This document shows positions 518-63,862 of a stretch of DNA of 64,000 bases, piece by piece. The stretch covers positions 17,050,001 to 17,114,000 of the forward strand of contig OX597841.1 in NCBI GenBank assembly GCA_951406725.2, given 5' to 3'. The DNA is from Octopus vulgaris (taxonomy: Eukaryota). How positions within the stretch are numbered: position 1 is the stretch's first letter; each line of letters begins with the position of its first letter. The position numbers and the translations under genes are program-made. Under the pieces are notes generated by a model. The model searched no databases. It had not been told where the DNA came from and saw only the letters and a list, made by a program, of their open reading frames with translations.

Positions 518-647
518 TGTTTCTTTATTAGCCACACAGGGCTGCACACAGATAGAACAAATTACAAGGTAGAGCTTTTCTTTTGAAGTAGATAGATAGA
601 TAGATAGATGGATAGATAGATGGATAGAGAGATAGATAGATAGATAA

Positions 648-13113: not shown

Positions 13114-13518
13114 GTTTCTGTATTGGCCACACAGGGCTGCACACAGATGGGACAAGTTACAAGGTAGAGCTTTTCTTTTAGGGGATGAAAGAAAACAAAA
13201 AACAAAAATAAAAGAAACAAGAAAAAGGTGGCTTGGGTTTTCGATCAAAAGGTATCGTAAAAGGGAAAAAAAAGAACAAAAAAATTTTTTTTTAAAAGAA
13301 AAAAGGAAAAGGAACAAAAGAAAAGAGAAATGAAAAAAAAGAAGAAAAAAGGGGGAAAAAAGGGGAAGGGGACAAAAAAAAACGATCAATAGGTATCGTG
13401 TATCACAGTGTTATGATGTATGGTGTAAAGGGGAAAACAAGTAAGGTTTATCCGTGGGAAGAAAAGCCTACGAAAAAGACCACGGTAACCTTGGTCAATA
13501 TTGTTATATGTTGCCACA
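13114..13518 (-). mobile_element. Tx1/L1-like LINE 3'UTR (5'-truncated) inside (GATA)n
   Basis: Homologous to 40226-40465 and 56964-57108; GATA repeats on both sides. Confidence 0.7.
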
Positions 13519-16738: not shown

Positions 16739-17310
16739 GATGGTCACAGCGGGAACGTCTTTAAAGACGTTCCCAATGTGACAATCCTGCCATTTATTCA
16801 GGCATAGTGTATCTAGGACTACGTAGTCGAAAGTGGTCTCCATTTCTTTTGTATTTATTAATCACTGTTAAGTTCCTTGTGACAACAGGCCTATGATCAA
16901 AGACGTTCCCGCTGTGACCATCCCGCCATTTATCCAGGCATTGTGTACCTAGGACTACGCAATTGAAAGTGACTTTCATATTTGCTCTGAATATTAATCC
17001 CTGTTAAGTTACTCGATCCAATACACCTATGATCAAAGACGTTCCCGCTGTGACCATCCCGCCTTTTATTCAGGCATTGTGTACCTAGGACTACGCAATT
17101 GAAAGTGACTTTCATATTTGCCCTGGATATTAATCCCTCTTAAGTTACTCGATCCAATACACCAATGATCAATGACATTCCATTTGTGACCATCTCGCCT
17201 TTAAATCTGCCATAACATATCTAGGACTACATTACCAAATATACACTTTTTAATTATTTAACCCTAGGTCAGTCCTGATCCCTCGACCATCCTATGATCA
17301 ACCGCCTTCC
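16739..17310 (+). repeat. 136-bp tandem satellite (~4 units) starting with an inverted partial unit
   Basis: Unit anchors at 16763, 16899, 17035 and 17171; 24-bp perfect palindrome GGGAACGTCTTTAAAGACGTTCCC at 16751-16774. Confidence 0.9.
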
Positions 17311-21919: not shown

Positions 21920-22132
21920 CGGTTTCAAATTTTGGCTCAAGAGGAGCCATTTTGGTGGAGGAGATGAGGCGATTTCATTGACCCCAGTGCGTAGCTGGAA
22001 CTTATTTTAGTAACCCCGAAAGGATGAAAAGAAAAGTCGACCTCGGCTGAATTTGAACTCAGAACGTAGCGACGGGTGAAATACCGCTAAGCATTTCGTC
22101 CAGCATGCTAAATATTCTGCCAGCTCGCCGCC
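21920..22132 (-). mobile_element. SINE-C monomer between (TAA)n tracts
   Basis: Minus-strand head GGCGGCGAGCTGGCAGAA...GAGTTCAAATTC (B box), then GAGGTCGACTT...TCATCCTTTCGGGG. Confidence 0.85.
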
Positions 22133-22171
22133 GTAGTAATAATAATAATGATAATAATAATAATAATAATA

Positions 22172-22715: not shown

Positions 22716-23680
22716 TTGAGAAATCTGCAGTTACTCTATCCAGATTACAAGTCCAAGTTTATACTTGTGCTTATTGAGGCACTGGCATATGTACCACACT
22801 GCCTTAAATACCAATCTTGAGAAATTAGGCTTCTCAAAACCAGAAATGAGAACGCTAATTCGACAGATCCAAAGACTACAGATCCAAGCCATGATTGGAA
22901 CTGTAAAGATCTGTAAAACTTTCCTGAAGTTTATCATTTAAGTAGACAAGCAATTATATGTATGAGAATACATACATAAAACAAAACATACAAATCTGCA
23001 AATGAACTCTAAATACTGCACAAAGGCGTAGGAGTGGCTGTGTGGTAAGTAGCTTGCTTACCAACCACATGGTTCCGGGTTCCGTCCCACTGTGTGGATC
23101 CTTGGGCAAGTGTCTTCTACTATAGCCTCGGGCCTACCAAAGCCTTGTGAGTGGATTTGGTAGACGGAAACTGAAAGAAGCCCGTCGTATATATGTATAT
23201 ATATATATATGTATATGTGTGTGTGTCTGTGTTTGTCCATCCAATATCGCTTGACAACCGATGCTGGTGTGTTTACGTCCCCGTAACTTAGCGGTTCCGC
23301 AAAAGAGACCGATATAATAAGTACTAGGCTTACAAAGAATAAGTCCTGGGGTCGATTTGCTCGACTAAAAGGCGGTGCTCCAGCATGGCCACAGTCAAAT
23401 GACTGAAACACGTAAAAGAGACGGATAGAATAAGTACTAGGCTTACAAAGAATAAGTCCTGGGGGTTGATTTGCTCGACTAACAGGCGGGTGCGGTGCTC
23501 CAGCATGGCCGCAGACACATGACTGAAACAAGTAAAAGAGTAAAAGAGATATATATATACACATACATGCAAAAATCGCCGGCTGACGTTCTTGAAATTC
23601 CGATGAAGGAGCCTTGGATCTAGGTTAGGCACCGGCTCTTTCTCTGTTGGCGAGCAATCTTGAAATAAAAACCGAAATGT
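22716..23680 (+). mobile_element. 3' end of an RLE-type (R2/R4/NeSL-like) LINE, frameshifted, 3'UTR interrupted by SINE-A
   Basis: Translates LRNLQLLYPDYKSKFILVLIEALAYVPHCL / NTNLEKLGFSKPEMRTLIRQIQRLQIQAMIGTVKICKTFLKFII* (stop 22939-22941), resembling the C-terminal part of the restriction-like endonuclease domain. Confidence 0.7.
23025..23548 (+). mobile_element. SINE-A, full length, with tandem duplication of its 3' ~115 bp
   Basis: Tail segment present twice (23310-23420, 23424-23548). Confidence 0.9.
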
Positions 23681-27929: not shown

Positions 27930-28285
27930 TGGTTGTGTGGTAAGAAGCTTGCTTACCAGCTACATGGCTCCGGGTTCAGTCCCACTGCGTGACATCTTGG
28001 GAAACTGTCTTCTACTATAGCTACGGGACGATCAAAGCCTTCTGAGTAGATTTGGTAGGCGGAAACTGAGAGAAGCCCGTCGTGTGTATGTATATATATA
28101 TGTACATATATTCTTTTATTCTTTCATTTGTTTCAATCATATGACTGCGTCCATGCTGGACAAACGCCTCTAGTCGGACAAATCGACCTCAGATCTATTT
28201 TGCCGAACTGCTAAGTTACAGGGACGTAAAAAATCTAAATTGGTTGTCAAGCGACGGTTGCGTGAAAATCACAGACACACAAACA
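27930..28285. mobile_element. SINE-A 5' half (+, 27930-28085) followed by SINE-A 3' half (-, 28110-28285)
   Basis: Both pieces match the consensus, in opposite orientations. Confidence 0.75.
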
Positions 28286-29018: not shown

Positions 29019-29035
29019 ATGTTTTTATAGTTGAA

Positions 29036-29250
29036 GGCGGTGAGCTGGCAGAACTGTTAGCACGTCGGGCGAAATGCTTAGCGGCATTTCGTCTGCCGCT
29101 ACGTTCTGAGTTCAAATTCCGCCAAGGTCGACTTTGCCTTTCATCATTTCGGGGTCGATAAATTAATTACCAGTTGCGTACTGGGGTCGATCTAATCAAC
29201 TAGTCCCCTCCCCAAAAATTTCGGGCCTTGTGCCTAGAGTAGGAAAGATA
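29036..29250 (+). mobile_element. SINE-C monomer with standard tail; an isolated SINE-B/D tail follows at 29274-29458
   Basis: Head, B box and GCCTTTCATCATTTCGGGGTCGATAAATTAATTACCAG, ending GGCCTTGTGCCTAGAGTAGGAAAG. Confidence 0.85.
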
Positions 29251-29756
29251 TTTTTATGTGTATATATATGCATGTTGTAGCTATATTTCAAAGGGCCGGC
29301 CTGCTCACATTCTGTGTTGTGCTGAAACTCCCTCAGAACCACATTAAGGGTACGAGTGTCTGTGGTGTACTCAGCCACTTCCACATTAATTTCACAAGCA
29401 GGCTGTTCCGTTGATCGGATCAACTGGAACCCTCATTGTCGAAATCGACGGAGTGCTTGTAATTCTTTCTGCTATTGGAAACTGTTCTAAAACTTTTATG
29501 AAGGGGAACTGCTCAAGTGATGAAAGGCAAAGTCGACGTTAATGGAACTCGAAATCTCGAAACAGACGGAGTGCCAATTAGCACTGGACATCAGTAAGAA
29601 GTTTTATCACCGGATAAATGCGGCGGAGTGGACATATTTAGAGGCTGTGGAGTCCTTCAAAAGATTTTCTTTGGTGAACAACTAGTTTGGTCTCAAGGGC
29701 ACGTAGTGGGCAATAGAAGAGATACAAGGATACGCCTGAGAAAGAGCTGAAAAAAA

Positions 29757-30779: not shown

Positions 30780-31145
30780 GTGTGTGTGTGTCTTTGTGTC
30801 TGTGTTTGTATCCCCGCCATAGCTTGACAACCAACAGTGGTGCGTTTATGCCTTTATGACATAGCAAAAGAAGCGGATAGAAAGAGTACTATGTTTTACA
30901 AAGTCCTGGGGTCGATTTTTCCGGGTAAAACCCTTTAAGGCAGCGCTCCAGCATGGCCGCAGTTAACTGAATGAAGCAAGTAAAAGAATAAGAAAATGTG
31001 GTGCGTGTGTGTTTGTGCGAGTTAACGGTTCGACAAAAAGAGATCGATAGAATAAGCACCAGGCTTTATAAATGGAAATAAGTATTGGGGTGGATTCTTG
31101 CAACTAAAAGAAATTCTTCAAGGCGGTGCCCCAGCATGGCCACAA
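30780..31145 (+). mobile_element. Two degenerate SINE-A 3' halves in tandem
   Basis: CCAGCATGGCC tail motif near 30948 and 31131. Confidence 0.7.
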
Positions 31146-31206
31146 ACCGGTGACGTTAATAATGTTTAAAAACTAACTCAGGAGGTCTTGTTGGGAACAT
31201 CATACC

Positions 31207-32764
31207 TATTTTTTTACTACCCACAAGGGGCTAAACATAGAGGGGACAAACAAGGACAGACAAACGGATTAGGTCGATTACATCGACCCCAGTGCGTAAC
31301 TGGTACTTAATTTATCGACCCCGAAAGGATGACAGGCAAAGTCGACCTCGGCGGAATTTGAACTCAGGACGTGAAGACAGACGAAATACCTATTTCTTTA
31401 TTACCTACAAGGGGCTAAACACAGAAGGGACAAACAAGGACAGACAAACGGATTAGGTCGATTACATCGACCCCAGTGCGTAACTGGTACTTAATTTATC
31501 GACCCCGAAAGGATGAAAGGCAAAGTCGACCTCGGCGGAATTTGAACTCAGAACGTAGCGGCAGACGAAATACCTATTTCTTTATTACCCACAAGGGGCT
31601 AAACACAGGGGACAACAAGGACAGACAAACGGATTAGGTCGATTACATCGACCCCAGTGCGTAACTGGTACTTAATTTATCGACCCCGAAAGGATGAAAG
31701 GCAAAGTCGACCTCGGGGGAATTTGAACTCAGAACGTAAAGACAGACGAAATACCTATTTCTATATTACCTACAAGGGGCTAAACACAGAGGGGACAAAC
31801 AAGGACAGACAAACGGATGCATATATATATACACATGAAAATATCTTTTCTACTCTAAGCACAAGGCCCGAAATTTTGGGGGAGGGGACTAGTTGATTAG
31901 ATCGACCCCAGTGCGTAACTGGTACTTAATTTATCGACCCCGAAAGGATGAAAGGCAAAGTCGATCTCGGCGGAATTTGAACTCAGAACGTAGCGGCAGA
32001 CGAAATACCTATTTCTTTACTACCCACAAGGGGCTAAACACAGAGAGGACAAACAAGGACAGACAAACAGATTAAGTCGATTATATCGACCCCAAAAGGA
32101 TGAAAGGCAAAGACGGCCTCGGCGGAATTTGAACTCAGAACGTAGCGGTAGACGAAATACCTATTTCTTTACTACCCCCAAGGGGCTAAACACAGAGAGG
32201 ACAAACAAGGACAGACAAACGGATTAAGTCGATTATATCGACCCCAGTGCATAACTGGTACTTATTTAATCGACCCCCGAAAGGATGAAAGGCAAAGTCG
32301 ACCTCGGCGGAATTTGAACTCAGAACGTAGCGGCAGAAGAAATACGTATTTCTTTACTACCCACAAGGGGCTAAACACAGAAGAGACAAACAAGGACAGA
32401 CAAACAGATTAAGTCGATTATATCGACCCCAGTGCATAACTGGTACTTATTTAATCGACCCCAAAAGGATGAAAGGCAAAGACGGCCTCGGCGGAATTTG
32501 AACTCAGAACGTAGCGGCAGACGAAATACCTATTTCTTTACTACCCACAAGGGGCTAAACACAGAGAGGACAAACAAGGACAGACAAACAGATTAAGTCG
32601 ATTATATCGACCCCAGTGCATAACTGGTACTTATTTAATCGACCCCCGAAAGGATGAAAGGCAAAGTCGACCTCGCCGGAATTTGAACTCGACTGTATAG
32701 CGGCAGACGAAATACCGCTAAGCATTTCGCCCGGTGTGCTAACGTTTCTTCCGGCTCGCCGCCG
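31207..32764 (-). mobile_element. SINE-C multimer array 1 (~184-bp units) bounded by a 15-bp TSD
   Basis: Unit boundaries at 31205, 31389, 31573, 31754, 32008, 32160, 32345 and 32529; single tRNA-like head at 32716-32763; flanking repeats TGGGA(A/G)CATCATACC at 31192-31206 and 32765-32779. Confidence 0.9.
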
Positions 32765-33039
32765 TGGGAGCATCATACCGAAGCTCCCTCTCGGTGACGT
32801 TGTGTAGTTGACTCTAGAGTACCGAAATCAGAATCAGAAATGTTCAGAGAAAGTAGAGGTTTCGCACGGAGAACAAGAATCCCGCCGTGTCCTGATACGG
32901 CTGTTACGGGTCGGTGTCTCTGGTATGACCTTGGATTACATGCTAGTACTAACCTTGTTATAAGCCAACATAGGAACCAAATGAAGAATACAGCTGCTAA
33001 TCTGGTCATCTTCAGAGACATCAAACATGAATGCCCTCA

Positions 33040-40089: not shown

Positions 40090-40225
40090 AGTCAGACAGA
40101 TACATACATACATAGACAGAGAGACAGACACACAGATGGACGGACAGACAGACAGATACATACATGCATAGACAGACAGACGGACGGACAGACAGACGGG
40201 TGGACGGACGGACGGACAGACAGAC

Positions 40226-40678
40226 TTCTTTATTAGCCTCATAGGGCTCGACAGAGAGGGGACAATACAATGTAGAGTTTTATTTTTTTCTTTTCGAGTG
40301 GGGCGAAAACGAAAAAAATAGGGCCATCGATCAAACGGGATGGAAATCGTTTGGGACACAGAAAAGTCGAAATAATACACAAAGAAATGTAGTTCCCAAA
40401 GGTGGGGAGGCTTATCCGTGGAAAGAAAAACCTACGAGAAGACCACGGTAACCTCGGGCAATAAAATACAAATGTACTCTCTTTCTTTTTTGGTTTGTAG
40501 GACTTTGTTCAAGGTGGCTCCGTCATTCGCCCGTGCCATCCTTGCTCCATTCACCCATCTTTTTTTGAAACAGTCGCTAAACACAACTTGCCTCTCTACT
40601 CTCACTTTCCTTTTCAAGTGATACTTGAAGAGGTTGATGAGAGATTGACCAGAGAGGAAAGTGTTTGTCTCCAGGATT

Positions 40679-40728: not shown

Positions 40729-40813
40729 TGTTTCTTTATTAGCCAAACAGGGCTGCACACAGACGGAACAGATTACAAAGTAGAGCTTTTCTTTTTGGGG
40801 GAGAGAAACAAAA
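40729..40813 (-). mobile_element. Short 3' end of the Tx1/L1-like family inside (GATA)n
   Basis: Near-identical to 518-588. Confidence 0.7.
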
Positions 40814-42664: not shown

Positions 42665-42762
42665 ACATATATACGACAGGCTTCTTTCAGTTTCCGTCTA
42701 CCAAATCCACCCACAAGGCTCTGGTCGTCCCGAAGCTATCGTAGAAGACACTTGCCGCCTTA

Positions 42763-43892
42763 TAATCTTTTCTACTCTAGGCATGCGGCCCGAAGTTTTG
42801 GGAGAAGGGGCCATCGATTAGATAGACCCTAGTACTTGACTGGTTCTTAACCTATCGACGTCGAAAGCATGAAAGGCAAAGTCGACCCCGGCGGAATTTG
42901 AACTCAGAACGTAACGACAGACGAAATACCTATTTCTTTACTACCCACAAGGGACTAAACACAGAGAGGACAAACAAGGACAGACAAACGGATTAGGTCA
43001 TCACATCGATACCAGTTCGTAACTGGTACTTAATTTATCGACCCCGAAAGGATGAAAGGGAAAGTCGACCTAGGCGGAATTTGAACTCAGAACGTAATCG
43101 CAGGCGAAATACCTATTTCTTTACTGCCCACAATGGGCTAAACACAGAGGGGACAAACAAGGACAGACAAACGGATTAGGTCATCACATCGACCCCAGTT
43201 CGTAACTGGTACTTAATTTATCGACCCCGAAAGGATGAAAGGGAAAGTCGACCTAGGCGGAATTTGAACTCAGAACGTAATCGCAGGCGAAATACCTATT
43301 TCTTTACTGCCCACAATGGGCTAAACACAGAGGGGACAAACAAGGACAGACAAACGGATTAGGTCATCACATCGACCCCAGTTCGTAACTGGTACTTAAT
43401 TTATCGACCCCGAAAGGATGAAAGGCAAAGTCGACCTCGGCGGAATTTGAACTCAGAACGTAACGACAGACGAAATACCTATTTCTTTACTACCCACAAG
43501 GGGCTAAACACAGAGAGGACAAACAAGGACAGACAAACGGATTAGGTCATCACATCGACCCCAGTTCGTAACTGGTACTTAATTTATCGACCCCGAAAGG
43601 ATGAAAGGCAAAGTCGACCTCGGCGGAATTTGAACTCAGAACGTAACGACAGACGAAATACCTATTTCTTTACTACCTACAAGGGGCTAAACACAGAGGG
43701 GACAAACAAGGACAGACAAACGGATTAGGTCATCACATCGACCCCAGTTCGTAACTGGTACTTAATTTATCGACCCCGAAAGGATGAAAGGCAAAGTCGA
43801 CCTCGGCGGAATTTGAACTCAGAACGTAACGGCAGGCGAAATAAAGCTACGCATTTCACCCGGCGCGGTAACATTTCTGCCAGCTTGCCGCC
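42763..43892 (-). mobile_element. SINE-C multimer array 2: head, five 183-bp units, final body, standard tail
   Basis: Unit boundaries at 42929, 43112, 43295, 43478 and 43661; head 43844-43892. Confidence 0.92.
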
Positions 43893-63186: not shown

Positions 63187-63862
63187 TATGGCTCAGAAAC
63201 CTGGACGTTATCAAAGAAGCTTGAGAGGCGGTTGGATGGAACCTACACTCGCCTCCTTATGAGAGCTCAAAATCTCTCGTGGAAGCGTCATCCAACCAAA
63301 ATGCAAATATATGGGAAATTACCACCTGTGTCATCTCTTGCGAAGGGTAGGAGAGTCCAGTTTGCTGGACATTGTTGTAGAGCTGAAAACGAGGTAATTT
63401 CTACTCTTCTCCTCTGGAAGCCATCTGCTCGTGATACCAGTTGAACCAATTCTACTCTATGGCTCAGAAACCTGGACGTTATCAAAGAAGCTTGAGAGGC
63501 GGTTGGATGGAACCTATACTCGCCTCCTTATGAGAGCTCAAAATCTCCCGTGGAAGCATCATCCAACCAAAATGCAAATATATGGGAAACTACCACCTGT
63601 GTCATCTTTTGTGAAAGGTAGGAGAGTCCAGTTTGCTGGACATTGTTGTAGAGCTGAAAACGAGGTAATTTCTACTCTTCTCCTCTGGAAGCCATCTACT
63701 CGCAATACCAGAGGGCGCACACTCTCCTACCCTGATGTAATCTCCATGGATACAGGCATCCAGCAACAGGACCTCCGTAATGCGATGATGGACCGTGAAG
63801 TCTGGCGTAGCATGGTAAATTCCATTGTCTCGACCACGGTCGAACAATGATGATGATGATGA
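63187..63862 (+). mobile_element. RTE-clade LINE 3' end, two tandem partial copies (63187-63440, 63441-63862)
   Basis: VEPILLYGSETWTL...RLDGTYTRLL...RRVQFAGHCCR...AMMDREVWR are typical RTE/RTEX C-terminal motifs; stop at 63848-63850 runs into a (TGA)n tail. Confidence 0.9.

What the first reader, a model, noticed from the sequence alone, without database searches (positions are those of the whole stretch)
31192..32779. SINE multimer: one Pol III head drives ~184-bp head-to-tail units, and the whole array sits in one TSD
Seen: on the minus strand a single tRNA-like head is followed by repeated body+tail units. Each tail (…AAGAAATA) is joined to GGTATTTCG at about +48 of the SINE, so every unit keeps the B box but lacks the A-box head. 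A 15-bp direct repeat with one mismatch flanks the whole 1.56 kb, and on the minus strand it begins GGTAT, the same bases as the internal re-entry point. Array 2 has the identical junction with unrelated flanks, so the junction is inherited and was not made locally. Inference: a mobile multimeric SINE, produced by rolling-circle reverse transcription of a circularised SINE RNA or by reiterative template jumping, and primed by microhomology at the target. That would be retrozyme-like, but I see no ribozyme in the unit.
Basis: partly seen in the sequence, partly recalled or inferred. Interest (0 to 1): 0.8.

Follow-up and report, generated by a model that had tools for sequence, protein, structure and literature searches.

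The report
SINE that inserts into its relatives
This chain of eight repeat units belongs to a very common jumping-repeat family whose units join at one fixed base about 35,000 times in the genome; the chains mix copies of different ages, likely because new copies land at that base inside older relatives and likely overwrite their front end, after which local DNA duplication likely lengthens them, rather than a circular RNA being copied round and round.

Summary
Observation confirmed: one head and eight body+tail units lie inside a 15-bp TSD (32779-32765 / 31206-31192). The junction is family-wide: 34,787 exact copies. The rolling-circle reading is not supported. No known ribozyme was found, the two units of dimers come from different templates (0 of 32 within one subtype difference), and internal units of longer arrays are chimeras of first and last units. 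Array 1 mixes two subtypes and holds the private flank of an inverted neighbour 2.6 kb away. Best model: a SINE with a LINE-derived tail is read through into GGTATTT, pairs with GGTAT-like targets, and inserts at base +48 of resident relatives. Double-head witness loci exist (117 exact matches). In arrays the head is young and the last unit old; the TSD looks old too (30/252 vs 14/238 mismatches, p=0.026, but two earlier versions of this test showed no difference). That suggests growth in place with head overwrite, then DNA duplication. Re-mobilised dimers remain a rival. The scan found this family before on other DNA. New variant of a known kind.

The parts
32765..32779 (-). 5' copy of the 15-bp TSD, begins GGTAT; one substitution at 32770
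32717..32763 (-). Head H (47 bp) with an A-box-like motif (degenerate in this copy); +48 lies at the loop of a predicted hairpin in the family head
   Evidence: fold of the monomer 29034-29135, z -4.2
32010..32716 (-). Units 1-4, subtype alpha (120-bp body with B-box-like motif + 64-bp tail T); units 2 and 4 share two private variants; unit 4 has a 32-bp deletion
31756..32009 (-). Unit 5: beta 5' part, then the 3' end, A-type tail and about 21 bp of private flank of the inverted monomer at +29036-29272, then tail T
   Evidence: 193-column alignment; that flank found only at these two places among all fetched loci
31207..31755 (-). Units 6-8, subtype beta; the last 46 bp of each tail T match a LINE 3' end
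31192..31206 (-). 3' copy of the TSD
29036..29272 (+). A-tailed monomer of the older family plus flank; inferred donor of the insert in unit 5
42760..43892 (-). Array 2: head, five T units sharing private variants (nested pairs), last unit an old A-tailed body; no TSD detected and no sibling of its last unit found
40222..40620 (-). 5'-truncated 3' end of a LINE family (RVT_1 and zf-RVT in longer copies elsewhere) whose end resembles tail T

Best explanation
The array belongs to a SINE family whose units join at one fixed base (+48); it likely grew in place, because new copies likely land at that base of an older resident copy and likely overwrite its head, and local DNA duplication then likely multiplied the units. 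Steps: (1) tail T ends like a LINE encoding reverse transcriptase (shown); that a LINE of this kind mobilises it is inferred. (2) The template RNA continues past the tail into GGTATTT, because source copies sit in front of a junction (inferred from TSD asymmetry and from tail subtypes remembering their junction). (3) That extension pairs with GGTAT-like targets, and the best-matching abundant target is +48 of resident relatives (insertion there is shown by double-head witness loci; the pairing is inferred). (4) Usually the cDNA head would pair with the homologous resident head and replace it, leaving young head + young unit + old last unit inside the old TSD (ages shown; the strand-replacement step is inferred and untested). 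(5) Slippage or unequal exchange duplicates the tail-to-body period, and gene conversion brings in neighbours (pattern shown; process inferred).
For: Witness loci: 117 exact pattern matches, control 0; by eye 12 of 14 distinct fetched loci show old head or tail + 14-16-bp B-start TSD + new head + unit + B start again; 3 of 100 unselected arrays after dropping one false call. RNA extension: GGTA after 23 of 62 monomer tails; asymmetry 12:0 or 8:0; gamma tails take the +14 junction in 8 of 14 internal cases and main tails in 0 of 137, and terminal gamma tails start with A in 18 of 23 against 6 of 62; the LINE end continues into (TATC)n, not GGTAT. Ages: terminal A-tailed bodies carry A-family alleles and are 6.2% diverged, like free A monomers (6.2%), against 3.2% for first units; heads young (CpG-site change 31/279 vs 77/628 in T monomers and 108/409 in old monomers; p=0.009 vs old, p=0.31 vs young). 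TSD of A-ended arrays 30/252 mismatched vs 14/238 for T monomers (p=0.026) and 15/133 for A monomers; same order in six fixed windows. No young A monomers among 9 unselected and only 3 of 18 selected; no sibling last units (0 of 528 pairs under 5%; best hit 87%). Duplication: first vs second unit share 39/86 tail variants (shuffle 5.8%), penultimate vs last share 9/23 and 19/61 in the 5' part (shuffle 2-3%), units 2 vs 3 share 54-77%.
Against: The TSD-age result depends on the method: two best-window versions found no difference (7.5% vs 7.6%), the bootstrap interval touched zero in one of six fixed windows, the A-monomer control is itself only p=0.07, and the fixed-window test was designed after the null results. 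Plain 5-nt microhomology predicts about 3% of insertions at +48 (27 of 862 GGTAT sites; 26 of 137 GGTATTT sites), yet 13 of 41 random T elements carry the junction, so longer pairing or a site-specific nuclease must be assumed. No LINE was found at 228 junctions. Head overwrite has no direct evidence; double-head witnesses are only about 3% of arrays. The linked sites 78/81 agree within dimers more than chance (25/32, p=0.004 uncorrected). In 18 unselected A-ended dimers the first 40 bp of the last body look younger than in free A monomers (23/504 vs 30/336), hinting at crossovers inside the body. 3 of 1,830 pairs of last units were within 5%. Samples come mostly from the start of contig C1 and from exact-match patterns.
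Confidence: 0.6

Rival explanations
1. Re-mobilised read-through dimers: rare in-place insertions create witness loci; Pol III reads from the inner young head through both units, and the dimer RNA is retroposed with a new TSD; DNA duplication extends it later.
For: Explains young heads without a new mechanism. Templates do run into the junction. L179 looks like a retrocopy of a witness locus inside its own TSD. TSD ages did not differ.
Against: TSDs of A-ended arrays look as old as A monomers in the fixed-window tests. Few young A-tailed monomers exist, so A-tail priming was probably mostly over. No sibling dimers, which needs several hundred or more equally active sources.
Confidence: 0.22
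2. Template jump during one insertion: reverse transcriptase copies one SINE RNA to about +48, then jumps to the GGTATTT-ending RNA of another copy.
For: Gives independent units, a young head and one TSD. +48 lies at a predicted hairpin loop. T-family haplotypes are very mosaic.
Against: Predicts young TSDs and active A-tail priming (against). Needs a stop at exactly one base. Does not explain double-head witnesses with a B-start TSD.
Confidence: 0.12
3. Rolling-circle reverse transcription of a circular 184-nt SINE RNA (retrozyme-like).
For: One head, fixed junction and one TSD; some arrays are homogeneous (L165).
Against: Dimer units differ at 5.66 of 14 subtype sites (random pairs 6.08), 0 of 32 within one difference; internal units are first/last chimeras; arrays end in older, different tails; no Rfam family at E up to 5.
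Confidence: 0.03
4. One or a few dimeric master genes (Alu-like), extended by DNA duplication.
For: Fixed junction; gamma tails are enriched in the last position (site 172C in 38% of second units vs 6% of first units).
Against: Last units are all different old elements; 25 of 41 random T elements are monomers; all 32 two-unit haplotypes differ.
Confidence: 0.03

Closest known systems
Blood clam SINE multimers TSD1-(SINE)n-TSD1 (PMC11481361; section 15 read whole, other passages)
   Same: A mollusc SINE array with one complete tRNA-related head, head-truncated repeats and one TSD around the whole.
   Different: There 64 elements in arrays of 4-15 units, with internal units truncated at both ends and unequal recombination suggested. 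Here tens of thousands of junctions, complete tails, units of different ages and witness insertions at the junction.
SINE-derived satellites of squamates (PMC10702118; parts 3 and 4 of 5 read)
   Same: Tandem units made of part of a SINE, terminal SINE ends, DNA-level change in unit number; cites jerboa Dip multimers.
   Different: They begin with internal duplication of one SINE. Here the founding dimer joins two different elements at a retrotransposition target site.
R1 elements of Drosophila rDNA (PMC2718515, passages) and R1Bm/SART1Bm (PMC7265360, passages)
   Same: Tandem arrays by repeated insertion at a fixed site; transcripts carrying flanking target sequence that anneal to the target; precise 5' junctions with target deletion when cDNA anneals to upstream homology.
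   Different: Those are autonomous LINEs that target rDNA or telomeres; arrays keep a TSD between copies. Here a non-autonomous SINE targets its own family and the head is usually not duplicated.
SINEU and Tx1-Mar of crocodilians (PMC4494074, passages)
   Same: A SINE with a preferred site inside another repeat, linked to a Tx1-clade partner.
   Different: The target is a Mariner transposon, not the SINE's own head; no head-to-tail arrays in the passages read. The partner here is unidentified and its clade was not tested by a tree.
Octopus tRNA-derived SINEs OK, OR1, OR2 (Ohshima and Okada 1994; not read, seen only as cited in PMC4758252 passages)
   Different: Identity with any named family was not testable; no sequence was at hand.

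Membership tests
tRNA-derived SINE | [quoted passage not shown] | tested here: met
   A-box-like motif in the head and B-box-like GTTCAAATTC in each unit, by inspection against recalled consensus motifs
tRNA-derived SINE | Homology of the head to a tRNA | tested here: inconclusive
   ARAGORN 0 genes; no tRNA hit in Rfam at E up to 10 on the monomer
tRNA-derived SINE | 3' tail shared with a LINE | tested here: met
   39-41 of 46 identical in 7 LINE ends and 35 of 42 in an eighth (8 of 19 loci aligned), scores 56-65 vs shuffle maxima 20-28; RVT_1 above cut-off in 1 of 5 frames and zf-RVT above cut-off in 1 of 5
tRNA-derived SINE | Interspersed copies with TSDs | tested here: met
   93,715 tail-end matches; TSD in 68 of 148 vs 6 of 438
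tRNA-derived SINE | Transcription by Pol III | not testable with these tools
   No RNA run was laid
Retrozyme / rolling-circle retroelement | Self-cleaving ribozyme in the unit | tested here: not met
   0 Rfam matches at E up to 5 over 31000-33000; an undescribed ribozyme is not excluded
Retrozyme / rolling-circle retroelement | Units of one array copied from one RNA | tested here: not met
Retrozyme / rolling-circle retroelement | Circular unit-length RNA | not testable with these tools
   needs RNase R and divergent RT-PCR
Dimeric SINE with master genes | Shared two-unit haplotypes across loci | tested here: not met
SINE-derived tandem arrays (TSD-(SINE)n-TSD, sSat) | One head, head-less repeats, one TSD | tested here: met
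SINE-derived tandem arrays (TSD-(SINE)n-TSD, sSat) | DNA-level duplication of units | tested here: met
   chimeric and nested sharing
Target-specific LINE/SINE system (R1-like, Tx1-Mar/SINEU-like) | Insertion at a fixed base of a repeated target, with TSD | tested here: met
Target-specific LINE/SINE system (R1-like, Tx1-Mar/SINEU-like) | Autonomous partner that uses the same site | tested here: inconclusive
   0 of 228 junctions had a LINE upstream; the LINE found sits in (TATC)n; earlier scan notes report such a partner, not confirmed here
Target-specific LINE/SINE system (R1-like, Tx1-Mar/SINEU-like) | Partner belongs to the Tx1 clade | not tested
   No tree was built; 'L1/Tx1-like' rests on zf-RVT and recall

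The most novel reading that the evidence does not exclude
A self-homing SINE: read-through RNA acts as an inherited guide that steers new copies to one base of their own family, the new cDNA replaces the old promoter head, and the rejuvenated locus becomes a new source that carries the same guide. The loop would have re-armed tens of thousands of old SINEs, made two subtype-specific junctions and seeded satellite-like arrays.
Probability: 0.4. Interest if true: 0.75.

Novelty: new variant of a known kind. Interest (0 to 1): 0.52.

Why it matters
If right, one TSD around a SINE array does not show that the array moved as a unit. A non-autonomous element could gain target specificity from its own read-through RNA and convert old copies into young-headed ones, which would distort SINE dating and subfamily trees and give a testable route from interspersed repeat to satellite. 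With about a third of the family in arrays, thousands of natural events are available to study how LINE machinery resolves the 5' junction when upstream homology exists.

Tried and rejected
Rfam scans found no ribozyme or tRNA family. Whether the RNA ends in U4 or continues into C was not settled: by eye, non-SINE flanks after GGTATTTT and GGTATTTC occur at roughly the background ratio (first 100 rows each). TSD age by best window did not discriminate. A sibling search for the last unit of array 2 found none (40 of 2,667 candidates scored). A search for LINE ends at junctions found none. Laying contigs on unit 5 was uninformative because contigs break in the repeat; run X9 gave no cover of the flank, so unit-number polymorphism and empty sites were not seen. 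One fold used a mistyped coordinate (28036-28136) and is not used. An old head kept by seamless insertion was rejected as the main route, though L106 and L137 look like it. Literature searches found no description of this junction or of a SINE inserting into its own head; the library lacks most subscription papers, no supplements were read, and repeat libraries in the supplements of PMC13282606 (passages read: 'dimer' 0, 'satellite' 0 in the main text) or in Repbase may hold the family.

Full report
Observation. On the minus strand a 15-bp repeat at 32779-32765 and 31206-31192 encloses a 47-bp head (H) and eight units of a 120-bp body (B) plus a 64-bp tail (T). Two runs with other organism labels carry flank and head in one contig and have the base that makes the TSD perfect. 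The genome is 2.8 Gb and rich in microsatellites; I infer an octopus-type host but did not test it. The junction is a family trait: 34,787 exact copies of a 22-mer and 36,990 of a 28-mer, controls 0, against 93,715 tail ends. In 600 kb taken at fixed positions on 21 contigs, 41 T elements were found: 25 with one body, 10 with two, 5 with three, 1 with four; 13 had the +48 junction and 3 a second junction at head +14/15. TSDs surround monomers, dimers and long arrays alike: 68 of 148 against 6 of 438 shuffled pairs.

What the units are. The last 46 bp of T match the 3' end of a LINE family: 39-41 of 46 identical in seven ends and 35 of 42 in an eighth, of 19 loci fetched. Longer copies carry RVT_1 and zf-RVT, and they run on into (TATC)n, not GGTAT. 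An older sister family has the same H and B with a different tail (A). ARAGORN and Rfam found no tRNA or ribozyme, so 'tRNA-like' rests on box motifs only.

Rolling circle is not supported. One circular template should give units of one subtype. In 32 T-T dimers the two units differ at 5.66 of 14 subtype sites (random pairs 6.08) and none is within one difference; only the linked sites 78/81 agree more than chance (25 of 32, p=0.004 uncorrected). Many arrays end in an A-family unit that carries A alleles and is 6.2% diverged, like free A monomers, while first units are 3.2%. In 22 arrays of three or more units, internal units share their 3' part with the first unit (39 of 86 tail variants, shuffle 5.8%) and their 5' part with the last (9 of 23 and 19 of 61, shuffle 2-3%); units 2 and 3 share 54-77% (13 arrays). 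This is what duplication of the tail-to-body period of a two-element dimer gives. Array 1 holds an alpha block (units 1-4) and a beta block (5-8), 4-10 differences within alpha and 11-19 between blocks. Unit 5 contains the tail and about 21 bp of private flank of the inverted monomer at +29036-29272, found nowhere else in the fetched loci. That points to a local DNA event. Array 2 shows nested sharing as well.

How the junction is made. The template RNA runs past the tail into the junction. Terminal tails are followed by GGTA in 34 of 112 cases and monomers in 23 of 62, against 0.26% background (loci picked for GGTAT ends were left out). Where the two TSD copies differ at +1..+5, the downstream copy has the junction base 12 times and the upstream copy never; dropping two slipped alignments leaves 8 to 0 (33 elements). 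Tail subtypes remember their junction: gamma tails join +14 in 8 of 14 internal cases and main tails in 0 of 137, and terminal gamma tails begin with A in 18 of 23 against 6 of 62. Insertion at +48 is seen directly: a pattern for B start + 0-10 bases + new head has 117 matches, control 0; by eye 12 of 14 distinct loci show old head or tail, a 14-16-bp B-start duplication, a new head and unit, then the B start again, three of them at the junction of an existing dimer. Such witnesses are 3 of 100 unselected arrays after dropping one false call. Passages on R1 and SART1 describe the same principle of flanking RNA annealing to the target (PMC2718515; PMC7265360).

Why most arrays have one head. 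Heads of A-ended arrays are young along their length: CpG-site change 31 of 279, against 77 of 628 in T monomers and 108 of 409 in old monomers; a T-family marker is in 12 of 49 such heads, 25 of 68 T monomers and 0 of 27 A monomers. Either the dimer moved with a new TSD, or it stayed and the head was replaced. My first reading, written, favoured movement; an earlier scan note (e1-9503098) suggested overwrite, and I then tested it. For staying: young A monomers are rare (0 of 9 unselected and 3 of 18 selected at 4% or less); last units have no siblings (0 of 528 pairs under 5%; 3 of 1,830 at 5% or less but no excess of shared rare variants; best hit 87%); and in a fixed window the TSDs of A-ended arrays are mismatched at 30 of 252 sites, against 14 of 238 for T monomers (p=0.026), 15 of 133 for A monomers and 11 of 147 for T-ended arrays (low-complexity flanks and elements under 8 of 11 matches were dropped). 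Mixture fits over six windows gave 11-13% against 6-9%, though they also put T-ended arrays at 12-14%. Against: two earlier best-window versions showed no difference, the old-monomer control is only p=0.07, and the fixed-window test came after those nulls. I therefore give growth in place 0.6 and re-mobilised dimers 0.22. A plausible route, inferred and untested: the cDNA head displaces the old bottom strand of the homologous resident head, and replication fixes the cDNA strand, so the daughter has a young head inside the old TSD. R1 of the melanogaster group makes precise 5' junctions by such annealing (PMC2718515, passages).

An open gap. SINE +48 sites are 27 of 862 GGTAT sites and 26 of 137 GGTATTT sites. 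That fits the witness rate but not a junction in a third of elements, so long RNA-DNA pairing along the body or a site-specific endonuclease is needed. Earlier scan notes report a LINE that uses the same site; I found none at 228 junctions and could not search further. +48 lies at the loop of a predicted hairpin (monomer fold z -4.2), which might attract nicking; that is speculation.

For array 1, the likely history is a beta T monomer inserted at a GGTAT target, an alpha unit added at +48 bringing the present head, then duplications, a 32-bp deletion and capture from the neighbour. The order is inferred. T4 runs at 32466, 32097 and 31841 make it an unlikely full-length Pol III template today.

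Comparison and verdict. The architecture is known: blood clam multimers of the form TSD-(SINE)n-TSD (PMC11481361, section 15) and squamate SINE-derived satellites (PMC10702118, parts 3-4). Target preference of a SINE inside another repeat is known from SINEU (PMC4494074, passages). Nine searches found no report of a SINE homing to its own head with an RNA-carried guide; supplements and repeat databases were not seen. The scan has noted this family several times on other DNA. It works like an R1-type self-rebuilding target system plus ordinary tandem duplication, and is not a retrozyme. New variant of a known kind; interest 0.52.

Noticed in passing
L179 (G000:C1:50342803-50345838): Old head fragment + B start + new head + unit sit inside their own TSD: looks like a retrocopy of a witness locus, so junction-bearing loci can act as sources.
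   Followed up: partly
G000:C10:17996023-17996501; C13:69036080-69036321; C14:84691114-84691409; C5:87874181-87875487: The 64-69-bp head + B-start period of witness loci is itself tandemly amplified up to eight times.
   Followed up: no
G000:C2:190034448-190038258 (L022, L029, L030): Tandem array of shortened old SINE units with 126-bp spacing and a higher-order repeat.
   Followed up: no
L031, L120, L303: Head-less arrays that start exactly at +48 from unique flank.
   Followed up: no
L028, L186, L189, L225, L251: A 6-bp duplication of the tail end just before the junction or TSD, possibly slippage when reverse transcription starts.
   Followed up: no
window 520-561, 13115-13164, 40222-40620, 40731-40770 (minus): Four truncated LINE 3' ends inserted in (TATC)n-type microsatellites, suggesting a microsatellite-targeting LINE.
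   Followed up: partly
window 21930-22134 (minus) and many 'HB' elements: A third, older tail type on the same head and body; it also ends some arrays.
   Followed up: no
window 63187-63711, 16763-17203, 23301-23540: Other local tandem duplications: 271 bp x1.9 in a LINE-like coding stretch (resemblance recalled, not tested), 136 bp x3.2, and 113 bp x2.1 inside a different SINE.
   Followed up: no
L054: Two T-family arrays face each other tail to tail with a short spacer.
   Followed up: no
T family, 88 monomers: Haplotypes at 14 subtype sites are highly mosaic (commonest seen 4 times), so arrays may act as recombination sites between subfamilies.
   Followed up: partly
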